NCBI RefSeq assembly: GCF_009914755.1
Contig: NC_060928.1
Reading direction: 5' to 3' (one strand)
Length of the DNA stretch: 64,000 nucleotides
Origin: the human T2T-CHM13v2.0 reference genome, Homo sapiens
Positions within the stretch are counted from its first letter, which is position 1. Each line of letters begins with the position of its first letter. This document shows, piece by piece, positions 30,703-33,049 of this stretch. Both the position numbers and the translations under genes were made by a program. Under the pieces are notes generated by a model, which was not told the DNA's origin, did not search any database, and worked only from the letters and a program-made list of their open reading frames with translations.

Positions 30703-32935
30703 TTTTTTTTAATTTTTGTGAGTACAATAGGTGTATATATTTATGGGGTACATGAGATATTTTGATACAGGTATACAATGCATAATAATTACATCAGGGT
30801 AAATGGGGTATCCATCACTTCAGGTATTTATCCTTTTTTCTTTTGGATTACTTTGTTTCGGTGTAAAATTCAAAAACTCCTTTAAAATAAGCCTTGCAAC
30901 ACTATAATTTCTGAGAATGAGCCTTACATTCTTGTCTTTAGTATCACTTCCTTCATGATTTTGCATTTTATATGTTATATTTACATTGGATACTTTCCAC
31001 AAAATTATTTTATGATGAGAAGACTTCTATTTTCCTTGTACAATGGTTGTTAGCAAGATTGAGTTCCTCTTGAGCTGTTGGACTAAGGGCATCAGGTACT
31101 TGTTGGCTGCCCTCAGTTTCTTGTAATATGGGTCTCTCCACAGGGTAACAGGCTAGCTCACATAGCTGGGTCACAGGACTGATTTTTGGTTCTTAAGAAA
31201 GTGTTTTTTGGGTGGATAGTTTTCCAATTTGGTGTTCCTGTAGGAGGAACAATTGCTGGAGGCTTCTATTTGGCCATCATTTATGCCATCTATGCCTCCT
31301 CATTTATCCTTTCTTTGAGGTTACAAACATCCAGTTATACACATAACTAAAAGTTTAGTTAAAATAACTGAATTTTGAAATGTACAATAAATTATCGTTG
31401 ACTTTAATCATCCTGTTGTGCTATTAATACTAGATCTTTTTTATTCTAACTATATTTTTGTACCCATTAACCATCTCCCCTTCCTCCTCCACCTCCGCTA
31501 CCCTTCCAAGCCTCTGGTAACCATCATTCTGCTTTCTAACTCCATGAATTCTATTGTTTTACTTTTTTTTAAAGCTCCCACAAATCAGTGAGAATATACA
31601 AAGTTTGTCTTTCTGTGACTGGTTTATTTCACTTAACATAATGACTTCCAGTTCCATCCATGTTGTTACAAATAACAGGATTTCATTCTTTTTTATAACT
31701 GAATAGTATTCTGTTGTGTATACATGTGCCACATTTTCTTTATCCATTCATTTGTTGATAGAGACTAAGGCTGCTTTCAAATCTTGGCTATTATGAATAG
31801 TGCTGCAATAAACATGGGAGTGAAGATATCTCTTCAATACACTGGTTTCCTTTCTTTTAGGTAAATACTTAGCAGTGGATTGTTGGTTCAAACGGTAGTT
31901 GCATTTTTAGTTTTTTGAGGGAACCTCCAAACTGTTCTCCAAGTGGTTGTACAAATTTACATTGTCACCAACAGTATACAAGGATTCCCTTTTCTCCACA
32001 TCCTTGCCAGCATTTGTTATTTCCTGTCTTTTGGATAAAAGCCATTATAACTAGCGTTAAGATGATATCTTATTGTAGTTTTAACTTGCATTTCTCTAAT
32101 GACCAGTGATTTGAGCACCTTTTCATATACCTTTTTGCCATTTGTATGTTTTCTTTTGAGAAATGTCTGTTCAGGTCTTTTGCCCATTTTTAATCAGATT
32201 ATTATATTTTTTCCTATAGAGTTATTTGAGTTCCTTAGATACTCTGGTTATTAATCCTTTGTCAGATGGACAGTTTGCAAATCTTTTTCCCAATTTGTGG
32301 GTTGTCTCCTTGTTGTTTCCTTTGCTGTGCAGAAGCTTTTTAATTTGATGTGATCCCATTTGTCCATTTTTGCTTTGTTGCCTGTGCTGTCTTGGTATTC
32401 CTCAAGAAATTTTTGCCCAGTCCAATGTTCTAGAGAATTTCCCCCAATGCTTTCTTTTAGTAGTTTCACAGTCCAAGATCTTTAATCTATTTTGATTTGA
32501 TGTTTGTATATGGTGAGAGATAGAGGTCTAGTTTCATTCTTATGCATATGGGTATCCAGTTTTCCCAGAACCACATATTGAAGAGATTGTCCTTTCCCCA
32601 ATGTATATTCTTGACATCTTTGTTGAAAATGAGTTCTCTGTAGATGTATGAATTTATTTCTGGGTTCTGTATTCTGTTCCACTGGTTTATGTGTGTGTGT
32701 TTATGCCAGTACATACTGTTTTGCTTACTGTAACTCTGTAGTATAATTTGAAGTCAGGTAACGTGATTCCTCTGGTTTTGTTATTTTTGGTATATTAACA
32801 TCAGGTACTGTGATCACTCACCTGATTTTTGGTTCTGAAGAAGGTGCTCTTTTGTGCGGATAGTTGCTCAATTTGGTGTCCCTGCAGTGGGCAGAGTATG
32901 ATCACTGGAGGCTTCTATTCAGCTGTCTTGCTCCA
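30703..32935 (-). mobile_element. L1MA element: 3'UTR and ORF2 C-terminus (30703-32790) fused to ~145 bp of L1 5' leader (32790-32935); interrupted at 30837-31301
   Basis: ORF2-like peptides (WYWHK-type region, KMDKWDHIKLKSFCTAKET), L1MA 3'UTR, and minus-strand 5' start GGAGCAAGACAGCTGAATAGAAGCCTCC. Confidence 0.9.
30837..31301 (-). mobile_element. Putative retrocopy of a spliced chimeric RNA: L1 5' leader (31300-31179) + MLT1-derived exon (31178-31043) + unique segment (31042-30845)
   Basis: Flanked by direct repeat ATTTATCCTTT (30826-30836 / 31302-31312) and interrupts otherwise contiguous L1MA 3'UTR. The leader ends at AAAAATCAG, exactly where the second leader copy (32823-32816) continues GTGAG. 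Confidence 0.72.
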
Positions 32936-33049
32936 CTGGGCTTTAATGGACCACTAATAAGGCCACGAGACAAACCTGGGGTTCTGACCAGAATACAGGT
33001 TTGGGACAGAGATCTTGGCATAAAGTCAGTACACTTAAAGGACGGTATC

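What the first reader, a model, noticed from the sequence alone, without database searches (positions are those of the whole stretch)
30826..31312. Fossil retrocopy of a spliced, L1-promoter-driven three-exon chimeric RNA
Seen: ~465 bp interrupts an L1MA 3'UTR and is bounded by the direct repeat ATTTATCCTTT. On the minus strand it starts with an L1 5' leader (GATGGCCAAATAGAAGCCTCC...AGAACCAAAAATCAG) that stops at 31179. The host L1's own leader in this window reads AGAACCAAAAATCAG|GTGAGT, so the cut falls exactly at a splice donor. Next comes ~135 nt of MLT1-like sequence ending AACAACCAT at 31043; the MLT1F-type consensus, as I recall it, continues GTGAGT there, a second donor. Then follow ~200 nt of non-repeat-looking sequence and a short A-rich end. 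Known: L1 5'UTRs have an early splice donor, and spliced L1 RNAs can be retrotransposed. Inference: an old L1 elsewhere drove a transcript spliced to two downstream non-L1 exons, which was reverse transcribed and inserted here. It would record an ancient L1-promoted lncRNA that repeat annotation shows only as unrelated fragments. Caveats: no AATAAA near the 3' end, and the tail is short and overlaps the TSD.
Basis: partly seen in the sequence, partly recalled or inferred. Interest (0 to 1): 0.8.

Follow-up and report, generated by a model that had tools for sequence, protein, structure and literature searches.

The report
Retrocopy of L1-leader-spliced chimeric RNA
A 465-base insert inside an old L1 element is a reverse-transcribed copy of a spliced non-coding RNA whose first exon is an L1 leader and whose other two exons come from chromosome 1, a rare fossil of an ancient L1-linked transcript.

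Summary
A 465-bp insert (30837-31301, minus strand) sits between two copies of ATTTATCCTTT in the 3' end of an old L1. Seven of 37 paralogous L1 copies carry the two flanks side by side with that stretch once.

The insert has three parts:
- a complete L1 leader (31301-31179) that ends exactly where the family reads CAG|GTGAG;
- 136 nt (31178-31043) that are 90-91% identical to chr1:185189088-185189221, minus strand;
- 206 nt (31042-30837) that are 81-86% identical to chr1:185162283-185162479, minus strand.

On chr1 the two pieces lie 26.6 kb apart. They are bounded by ...ccag|, |gtgagt and ...tttcag|, so at least one GT-AG intron was removed.

The same leader donor is joined to an internal L1 5'UTR site in 22 other genomic copies, so it was used in vivo.

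The source L1 for exon 1 is missing. No leader of this family lies within 200 kb upstream of exon 2, and three exact 13-mer probes found none within 4.8 Mb. "L1-promoter-driven in cis" is therefore inferred, from the retrocopy starting at the L1 5' terminus. Trans-splicing or template switching remain possible.

The insert has almost no poly(A) tail and no AATAAA. It is non-coding and probably inert.

The parts
31302..31312 (.). Target-site duplication, copy next to the 5' end of the minus-strand insert (ATTTATCCTTT on +)
   Evidence: Only two copies in the window. It is a single copy in 7 of 37 paralogous L1 3' ends, where the two flanks overlap by 11-15 nt.
31179..31301 (-). Exon 1: complete L1 leader (123 nt). 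It runs from the family's 5' terminus to the exon side of the CAG|GTGAG donor and carries a ~12-nt internal duplication (GATGGCATAAAT/GATGGCCAAATA).
   Evidence: 83-87% identical to hundreds of L1 5' ends; mean 85.4% to 17 fetched copies. The family reads AATCAG|GTGAG (1737 sites within 2 mismatches against 32 in the control; alignment). The duplication is unique in the genome.
31043..31178 (-). Exon 2: 136 nt copied from an exonised old dispersed repeat (MaLR/MLT1-like by recall) at chr1:185189088-185189221 (-)
   Evidence: 122 of 134 aligned bases identical, K2P 0.096. The source is flanked by ...gatgaaaaccag| and |gtgagtagc. 11 weak paralogs at 71-89%.
30837..31042 (-). Exon 3: 206 nt of unique sequence copied from chr1:185162283-185162479 (-). 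It ends ...CCAAAAGAAA directly at the TSD.
   Evidence: 168 of 196 aligned bases identical, K2P 0.159, 15 gap columns. The source is preceded by ...ttatctctcatctttcag|, and homology ends at ...CAGAAGAAA|cctttt. It is the only relative in the genome.
30826..30836 (.). Target-site duplication, copy next to the 3' end of the insert
30703..32937 (-). Host L1 (context). Its leader is at about 32937-32790, with the intact donor AATCAG|GTGAGT at 32822/32821. The leader is joined to the ORF2 3' part near 32789. The 3'UTR is interrupted by the insert, and the A-run ends near 30703.
   Evidence: The 3' end is 87-91% identical to many L1 3' ends. The host leader is 77.9% identical to the 17 family copies, more diverged than the insert's leader.

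Best explanation
This is a dead, non-coding processed retrocopy made by the L1 machinery (target-primed reverse transcription) from a spliced chimeric RNA.

The proposed sequence of events:
- A then-active L1 of the 'AATCAG|GTGAG' leader family started transcription at its own 5' end.
- Its strong leader donor, about 110 nt in, was spliced to the acceptor of an exonised old repeat on what is now chr1 (~185.189 Mb, minus strand).
- That exon's own donor, supplied by the repeat (AACAACCAT|gtgagt), was spliced 26.6 kb downstream to a terminal exon.
- The mature ~465-nt RNA was reverse transcribed and inserted into the 3'UTR of an older L1 on chr4, duplicating 11 bp.

Shown: the three-part anatomy, the target-site duplication, the two chr1 exons with their splice signals, the family-wide donor, and use of that donor in other retrotransposed copies.

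Inferred: that exon 1 was joined in cis from an L1 upstream of exon 2. That L1 is no longer detectable. It may never have been fixed, may have been deleted, or may lie far away. The date is also inferred: roughly 30-65 million years from about 12% mismatch between copy and source, using a recalled neutral rate.
For: 1. Insertion.
- The 11-bp direct repeat flanks the insert exactly.
- 7 of 37 paralogous L1 3' ends have the two flanks contiguous, overlapping by 11-15 nt. One more such copy lies in the fetched chr1 DNA.

2. Spliced source.
- Segments 2 and 3 hit one chromosome, same strand, in transcript order, 26.6 kb apart (E = 9e-46 and 1e-42). These are the only strong hits when searched alone; all 14 candidates were scored.
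- At the source, exon 2 is bounded by ...ccag| and |gtgagt. Exon 3 is preceded by a pyrimidine tract plus cag|.

3. Leader donor.
- The leader ends at the base before GTGAG in the host L1.
- By my reading of the alignment, 13 of 18 aligned full leaders (17 fetched plus the host) keep G|GT at that spot.
- 1737 genomic sites match within 2 mismatches, against 32 in the control.

4. The donor was used in vivo.
- 22 genomic sites (control 0) join the same donor to CTTGGGTACCAGC.
- In full-length copies that motif lies about 600 and 900 nt downstream. In 3 of 17 matches it still follows ...ttgcag|.

5. Transcript start. The insert begins GAGGAGGCA..., at the family's 5' terminus, directly after the TSD.

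6. No other role is visible. There is no ORF over 48 aa and no Rfam match.
Against: - No leader of this family lies on either strand in the 200 kb upstream of exon 2. The best blastn hit is 27 bits, the chance level.
- Three exact 13-mers from the leader have no chr1 hit between 184.29 Mb and 189.98 Mb. I estimate each probe would survive in only about a fifth of copies of this age, so this screen is weak beyond 200 kb.
- The last 8 nt of the leader (AAAATCAG) resemble the last 8 nt of the chr1 intron before exon 2 (AAAACCAG). The leader/exon 2 junction therefore has a 3-nt ambiguity and could also have formed by microhomology.
- The first 4 nt of exon 3 differ from the source (TGTA against ACTG), so that junction is placed only to within about 4 nt.
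- There is no canonical poly(A) signal. The tail is at most 3-6 A and merges with the TSD.
- The inferred nick site (TTT/CT on the + strand) is not the usual L1 endonuclease site (TTTT/AA, recalled).
Confidence: 0.7

Rival explanations
1. The same retrocopy, but the L1 leader was joined in trans. One route is trans-splicing of an L1 RNA's leader donor to the exon 2 acceptor. The other is the L1 reverse transcriptase finishing the exon 2-exon 3 RNA and then switching to an L1 RNA at the AAAA(T/C)CAG microhomology and copying it to its 5' end. No L1 ever sat upstream of the chr1 exons.
For: - No leader of this family lies within 200 kb upstream of exon 2, and no 13-mer hit lies within 4.8 Mb.
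- 7 of the 8 nt at the junction are shared between the L1 leader end and the chr1 intron end.
- Trans-splicing and template switching are both listed as routes to L1 chimeras in the passages read from bioRxiv 10.1101/2025.02.02.635956.
Against: - The L1 side of the junction is exactly the exon end of a donor that other retrotransposed copies used.
- The chr1 side is exactly an AG with a pyrimidine tract upstream.
- A template switch would hit both splice boundaries only by coincidence.
- By recall, known template-switch chimeras carry the L1 as the 3' part, not the 5' part.
Confidence: 0.17
2. The retrocopy derives from a cis transcript whose L1 promoter still exists but lies more than 200 kb upstream, is too diverged for the probes, or was separated from the exons by a later rearrangement.
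For: - The search beyond 200 kb relied on three exact 13-mers only.
- Same-strand leaders of the family exist at chr1:189.98 Mb and 193.00 Mb.
Against: - An intron of 4.8 Mb or more is implausible.
- Full blastn of 200 kb found nothing.
- The leader's 12-nt duplication has no second copy in the genome within 3 mismatches of 28 nt, although it may have arisen after insertion.
Confidence: 0.1
3. This is not a retrocopy. It is a chance mosaic of repeat fragments, or a DNA-level rearrangement or gene conversion, inside the host L1.
For: The poly(A) tail is almost absent and the nick site is atypical.
Against: - An exact 11-bp TSD flanks the insert, and paralogs show empty sites.
- Two segments are copied from chr1 exons 26.6 kb apart and joined precisely at GT-AG boundaries.
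- The leader is cut at its donor.
Confidence: 0.02

Closest known systems
SpIREs (spliced integrated retrotransposed elements; Larson et al. 2018, PMC5860796, passages read)
   Same: A retrotransposed copy of an L1 RNA that used the splice donor about 100 nt into the 5'UTR. It is flanked by target-site duplications and is a dead end for the element.
   Different: SpIREs splice to an acceptor inside the same L1 and keep the L1 body and 3' end. Here the acceptor and everything downstream are non-L1 exons from chr1, and no L1 3' sequence is present, so the RNA must have been mobilised in trans. The paper reports SpIRE97/622 only in L1PA1-L1PA6 and none in L1PA7-17, L1PB or L1MA, using a probe from a modern L1. 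This leader belongs to an older family.
Gene-exon to L1 chimeric insertions ('5' transductions' by splicing; bioRxiv 10.1101/2025.02.02.635956, passages read)
   Same: A chimeric RNA joined at a splice donor and then inserted by TPRT within one TSD pair. Cis-splicing, trans-splicing and template switching are discussed there as routes.
   Different: That is the mirror image. There the host-gene exon is 5' and the L1 is 3' (17 cases in hg38, six ending exactly at donors). Here the L1 leader is 5' and the host exons are 3'.
Hybrid transcripts between the L1 5'UTR donor and cellular exons (Belancio et al. 2006; paper not held; known to me by recall and from one sentence in PMC2896524)
   Same: The proposed parent RNA is of this kind: an L1 sense transcript spliced from the leader donor into downstream non-L1 exons.
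   Different: By recall, those are present-day RNAs of young L1s, and PMC2896524 says they are detected at low levels. This is a fixed genomic copy of such an RNA from a much older L1 family.
Ordinary processed pseudogenes / lncRNA retrocopies
   Same: An intronless copy of a multi-exon transcript with a TSD, in an unrelated chromosome.
   Different: The first exon is an L1 leader and the second an exonised repeat. The tail is nearly absent and there is no canonical poly(A) signal.

Membership tests
L1-mediated processed retrocopy | Flanking target-site duplication, single copy at the empty site | tested here: met
   The 11-bp repeat occurs only twice in the window. 7 of 37 paralogous L1 3' ends show contiguous flanks overlapping by 11-15 nt. 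The orthologous empty site was not testable.
L1-mediated processed retrocopy | Intronless copy of exons that are separated by GT-AG introns at the source | tested here: met
   chr1 exons 26.6 kb apart, bounded by ccag|...|gtgagt and tttcag|
L1-mediated processed retrocopy | 3' poly(A) tail downstream of a poly(A) signal | tested here: not met
   Homology to the source runs to ...GAAA and abuts the TSD, leaving at most 3-6 A. There is no AATAAA or ATTAAA in the last 60 nt of the copy or the source.
L1-mediated processed retrocopy | Insertion at an L1 endonuclease-type site (TTTT/AA, recalled) | tested here: inconclusive
   The inferred nick is ...CCTTT/CTTTG on the + strand: T-rich before the nick but pyrimidines after it. 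The site is old and may have mutated.
SpIRE | Uses the L1 5'UTR leader donor | tested here: met
   The leader ends at AATCAG, where the family continues GTGAG.
SpIRE | Acceptor inside the same L1; L1 body and 3' end retained | tested here: not met
   The downstream 342 nt map to chr1 non-L1 exons. No L1 3' part lies inside the TSDs.
L1 sense-promoter chimeric transcript (as parent RNA) | RNA starts at the L1 5' terminus | tested here: met
   The insert starts GAGGAGGCA..., aligned with the 5' ends of the 17 family copies, directly after the TSD.
L1 sense-promoter chimeric transcript (as parent RNA) | The L1 lies upstream, on the same strand, of the exons it is spliced to | tested here: not met
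   None in 200 kb. No 13-mer hit on chr1 between 184.29 and 189.98 Mb. Only the present human genome could be tested; the ancestral state is unknown.
L1 sense-promoter chimeric transcript (as parent RNA) | RNA evidence (EST, long read, CAGE) for the junctions | not testable with these tools
   No transcript data are held.
Template-switch chimeric retrocopy (U6/L1 type) | Junction independent of splice sites; the 5' partner is copied from its 3' end | tested here: not met
   The junction coincides with an L1 donor and a chr1 acceptor. A 3-nt CAG ambiguity and the AAAA(T/C)CAG microhomology leave a small opening.

The most novel reading that the evidence does not exclude
The retrocopy is the only surviving record of a full-length L1 insertion that once sat upstream of a chr1 non-coding gene, drove it from the L1 sense promoter, and was then lost (never fixed, or deleted). 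Retrocopies would then archive extinct transposon-promoter alleles. Together with the 22 leader-to-internal-acceptor copies found here, it would show that the donor about 100 nt into the L1 leader was already spliced, both within L1 and into host exons, in an L1 family far older than the L1PA1-6 range in which such spliced copies were reported in the passages read.
Probability: 0.4. Interest if true: 0.55.

Novelty: new variant of a known kind. Interest (0 to 1): 0.45.

Why it matters
L1 leaders are known to carry a splice donor, and spliced L1 RNAs are known to be retrotransposed. Documented genomic copies are L1-internal splices of young families, or host-exon-to-L1 fusions. This insert is the reverse arrangement: an L1 leader spliced onto host exons, preserved as DNA from an old L1 family.

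It gives direct sequence evidence for three things. An ancient L1 leader donor was functional. It could capture downstream exons, including an exonised repeat that supplies its own donor. Such RNAs entered the germline retrocopy pool.

Repeat annotation would show only three unrelated fragments. A junction-based search for leader donor followed by non-L1 sequence could recover other extinct L1-linked transcripts. In the partial census here (154 exact-match sites), this was the only case whose downstream sequence was mapped to non-L1 exons at another locus. Two other sites remain unresolved and two were not fetched. The event therefore looks rare. The element itself has no sign of present function.

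Tried and rejected
1. Exon 1 source.
- blastn (word size 7, E up to 10) of the 123-nt leader against chr1:185189230-185389229 gave nothing above 27 bits.
- Instead I used exact 13-mer patterns, whose chr1 hits are listed in full. ACCAAAAATCAGG, AATAGAAGCCTCC and GGAACACCAAATT give no chr1 hit between 184.29 Mb and 189.98 or 193.00 Mb.
- The leader's 12-nt duplication has no second genomic copy within 3 mismatches of 28 nt.

2. L1 bodies upstream of exon 2.
- Family 5' regions blasted against the 200 kb gave mostly Alu hits.
- One L1 lies on the minus strand about 59 kb upstream. It is a well-preserved full-length element with a different leader (GGAGGAGCCAAGATGGCCGAATAGGAACAGCTCC...; an 'L1PA type' label is by recall), so I rejected it as the source.

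3. Sibling copies. None were found. Segments 2 and 3 searched alone gave 14 candidates, all scored: the insert itself, the two chr1 exons and 11 weak repeat hits.

4. Other leader-to-foreign-exon retrocopies. I listed 154 sites with the exact 15-mer AGAACCAAAAATCAG followed by a base other than G (60, control 12; 94, control 2). I classified them by eye from the 20 nt after the 15-mer, and for 17 of them from fetched DNA:
- 108 mutated donors
- 9 small deletions
- 17 leader|CTTAGGTACCAGC-type junctions
- 2 sites where an Alu-like start (by recall) follows the junction
- 4 other L1-internal junctions (L042, L043, L046, L057)
- 2 unresolved (L044, L047)
- 10 without leader context
- 1 not fetched
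- 1 this insert

5. Coding or structured-RNA readings. There is no ORF over 48 aa and no Rfam match at E up to 1.

7. Belancio et al. 2006 and 2008 are not held.

8. Prior print. Searches listed no paper that, by title or abstract, describes a genomic retrocopy of an L1-leader-to-host-exon RNA, or spliced copies of L1MA-era elements. Only the held open-access library was searched, and no supplements were read.
Full report
ANATOMY.

On the minus strand the region reads as follows:
- host L1 3'UTR ...CCTCAAAGA, then AAAGGATAAAT (TSD, 31312-31302);
- GAGGAGGCATAGATGGCATAAATGATGGCCAAATAGAAGCCTCC...AGAACCAAAAATCAG (31301-31179);
- TCCTGTGACCCAGC...CTAACAACCAT (31178-31043);
- TGTACAAGGAAAAT...AATCCAAAAGAAA (31042-30837);
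- AAAGGATAAAT (TSD, 30836-30826), then ACCTGAAGTGATGG... and the rest of the host L1 3' end.

The 11-mer occurs only at these two places in the window.

The host element runs on the same strand from about 32937 to about 30703. Its own leader reads ...AGAACCAAAAATCAG|GTGAGTGATCACAG at 32836-32808.

IS IT AN INSERTION?

I searched the genome with the host L1 3' region including the insert (6288 candidates, 40 scored).
- 37 paralogous L1 3' ends match the downstream flank.
- In 7 of these, the upstream-flank match reaches the TSD and overlaps the downstream-flank match by 11-15 nt in the paralog. Those copies therefore carry the two flanks side by side with the duplicated stretch once.
- In the others, where an upstream match was reported, it ends about 70 nt short of the site, in a variable part of the 3'UTR.
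- A further copy of this kind lies in the fetched chr1 DNA.

The 465 bp are therefore an insertion with an 11-bp target-site duplication. The orthologous empty site could not be examined, because only this one genome is held.

WHERE THE PIECES COME FROM.

A whole-genome search with the insert gave three classes of hit.
- Bases 24-123 match hundreds of L1 5' ends at 83-87% (797 candidates, 40 scored).
- Bases 116-259 match chr1:185189088-185189229, minus strand, at 90% (E = 9e-46).
- Bases 264-465 match chr1:185162283-185162479, minus strand, at 81% (E = 1e-42).

Searched without the leader (all 14 candidates scored), segment 3 has this one relative only. Segment 2 has this one close relative plus 11 weak partial ones (71-89%), as expected for an old dispersed repeat.

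At the chr1 locus:
- exon 2 is preceded by ...ccctctcttgctctctgatgaaaaccag| and followed by |gtgagtagcttgg;
- exon 3 is preceded by ...ttgttatctctcatctttcag|;
- the similarity ends at ...ACAGAAGAAA|ccttttgg.

The copy's two internal boundaries thus fall on an acceptor, a donor and an acceptor of the source, and 26.6 kb of intron are missing from the copy. Global alignments give 122 of 134 identical bases for exon 2 (K2P 0.096) and 168 of 196 for exon 3 (K2P 0.159, 15 gap columns).

About 12% mismatch shared between two neutrally evolving copies suggests an age of very roughly 30-65 million years. The rate of about 1-2.2e-9 per site per year is recalled, so this is an estimate and not a measurement.

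THE LEADER AND ITS DONOR.

I aligned the insert with 17 fetched L1 5' ends and with the host L1.
- The insert starts at the family's 5' terminus. The family copies begin ...GAGGCAGAGCAAGATGGCC, and the insert begins GAGGAGGCATAGATGGC...
- The insert has a ~12-nt internal duplication that is unique in the genome.
- By my reading of the alignment, 13 of the 18 full leaders (17 fetched plus the host) keep G|GT at the point where the insert's leader stops. The others carry point changes or small deletions there.
- Genome-wide, AGAACCAAAAATCAGGTGAG has 1737 matches within 2 mismatches, against 32 for the reversed control.
- The insert's leader is 85.4% identical on average to the 17 copies. They were picked as its best matches, so this figure is biased upward. 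The copies are 82.5% identical to each other. The host's leader is 77.9% identical to them, consistent with an older host.

WAS THAT DONOR EVER USED?

I listed every genomic site with the exact 15-mer AGAACCAAAAATCAG followed by a base other than G: 60 sites (control 12) plus 94 sites (control 2), 154 in all. I sorted them by eye from the 20 nt after the 15-mer. For the 17 unclear ones I used fetched DNA.

| Class | Sites |
|---|---|
| Mutated donors | 108 |
| Small deletions | 9 |
| Leader joined to CTTAGGTACCAGC... | 17 |
| Alu-like start (by recall) after the junction | 2 |
| Other L1-internal junctions (L042, L046, L057 into the 5'UTR interior; L043 into the 3'UTR) | 4 |
| Unresolved (L044, L047) | 2 |
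| No leader context (chance 15-mers) | 10 |
| Not fetched | 1 |
| This insert | 1 |

A direct search for the 24-nt junction CCAAAAATCAGCTTGGGTACCAGC found 22 sites within 3 mismatches, against 0 in the control.

In full-length copies the GGTACCAGC motif lies about 600 and about 900-1000 nt downstream of the donor (17 matches in 12 of 17 loci). In 3 of those matches it is still preceded by ...ttgcag|.

These 22 sites are therefore retrotransposed copies of L1 RNAs spliced inside the 5'UTR from the same donor. They are the older-family equivalent of SpIREs. So the donor was functional, and spliced products reached the genome.

In this exact-match census the insert is the only site whose downstream sequence was mapped to non-L1 exons at another locus.

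THE MISSING EXON 1 SOURCE.

If the RNA was made in cis, an L1 of this leader family should lie upstream of chr1 exon 2, at higher coordinates on the minus strand.
- blastn of the leader against the 200 kb upstream (chr1:185189230-185389229, no Ns) found nothing above 27 bits on either strand.
- Three exact 13-mers from the leader have no chr1 hit between 184.29 Mb and 189.98 or 193.00 Mb. I estimate each 13-mer would survive in only about a fifth of copies of this age, so this is a weak screen beyond 200 kb.
- The only 5'-intact L1 found on the right strand, about 59 kb upstream, has a different leader and is well preserved, so it is too young.

The cis model therefore needs one of three things: an L1 that was polymorphic and lost, one that was later deleted, or one that is very distant.

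The alternative is a trans event, either trans-splicing or reverse-transcriptase template switching. It gains some room from the resemblance between the leader's end (AAAATCAG) and the intron's end (AAAACCAG). Against it, the junction sits on a proven donor on one side and on a pyrimidine-tract AG on the other.

My weights are about 0.70 for cis, including a distant or rearranged L1, about 0.17 for trans, and the rest for unknown or other causes.

THE 3' END.

- The copy's similarity to the source runs to ...GAAA and abuts the TSD, whose first three bases are also A. The tail is therefore at most 3-6 nt.
- Neither the copy nor the source has AATAAA or ATTAAA in the last 60 nt. The source has AATACA 13 nt from the end. 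I recall this as a weak variant signal and did not test it.
- The inferred first-strand nick (+ strand ...ATCCTTT/CTTTGAGG) is T-rich but not the canonical site.

These points weaken the membership test for a textbook processed pseudogene. They do not affect the splice evidence.

FUNCTION NOW.

There is no ORF longer than 48 aa on either strand and no Rfam family match. In the annotation supplied with the task, no gene or functional-element row overlaps the insert. I read it as an inert fossil.

COMPARISON WITH PRINT.

- Larson et al. 2018 (PMC5860796, passages). They describe retrotransposed L1s spliced from the donor at position 97-98 to acceptors inside L1. They found SpIRE97/622 in L1PA1-L1PA6 and none in L1PA7-17, L1PB or L1MA, using a probe from a modern L1.
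- bioRxiv 10.1101/2025.02.02.635956 (passages). It reports 17 insertions in which host mRNA or lncRNA sequence is fused 5' of an L1. Six end exactly at host splice donors. It lists cis-splicing, trans-splicing, ligation and template switching as mechanisms.
- PMC2896524 (passages). [quoted passage not shown] 2006, which is not held.

Searches listed no paper that, by title or abstract, describes a genomic retrocopy with an L1 leader spliced 5' of host exons, or spliced copies of this older leader family. Only the held open-access library was searched and no supplements were read, so this is not proof of absence.

VERDICT.

It is a new variant of known kinds: a processed retrocopy, and spliced L1 RNA being retrotransposed. 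It is of moderate interest as a molecular fossil and as a search recipe, not as a new mechanism.

Noticed in passing
G000 genome-wide, e.g. C5:18171630-18171653, C7:104501189-104501212, C12:98932615-98932638: 22 sites (control 0) join the old-family L1 leader donor (...AAAAATCAG) directly to CTTGGGTACCAGC. In full-length copies that motif lies about 600 and 900-1000 nt downstream, and in 3 of 17 matches it is still preceded by ...ttgcag|. These look like spliced, retrotransposed L1s of an L1 family older than those in which Larson et al. 2018 (passages read) found SpIREs with a modern-L1 probe.
   Followed up: partly
window 32780-32937 (-): The host L1 is 5'-intact but internally deleted. About 150 nt of leader, with the donor GTGAGT retained, run straight into the 3' part of ORF2 near 32789. 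There is no GT at that junction, so it looks like a deletion rather than a splice.
   Followed up: no
L043 = G000:C2:155497309-155497893 (-): The last ~30-40 nt of an L1 leader end at the same donor and are joined to the last ~170 nt of an L1 3' end (85% identical to the window's host L1 3' end). This may be an extreme leader-to-3'UTR spliced and 5'-truncated copy.
   Followed up: partly
L044 = G000:C3:33878203-33878787 (-); L047 = G000:C6:66108303-66108887 (+): Both have a full leader cut at the donor, followed by unidentified sequence. In L044 it is about 230 nt of AT-rich sequence, then an L1 ORF2 3' part. In L047 it is about 75 nt, then an Alu. They could be further leader-to-foreign-exon copies or just rearranged L1s.
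   Followed up: partly
G000:C1 about 185,241,700-185,247,990 (-), inside L026/L027: A well-preserved full-length L1 with a different leader (an 'L1PA type' label is by recall) lies about 59 kb upstream of the source exon 2, in the same orientation as the old transcript. About 100 nt into its leader it reads CTGATGTACC. By recall this is where modern L1s carry their leader donor, which would make it a mutated donor.
   Followed up: no
L002 1635-1720 (-) and window 31043-31178 (-): Both splice sites of source exon 2 (...gaaaaccag| and AACAACCAT|gtgagt) lie within what I recall to be a MaLR/MLT1-type LTR. If so, the exon is an exonised LTR segment that brings its own acceptor and donor. The family name was not tested.
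   Followed up: no
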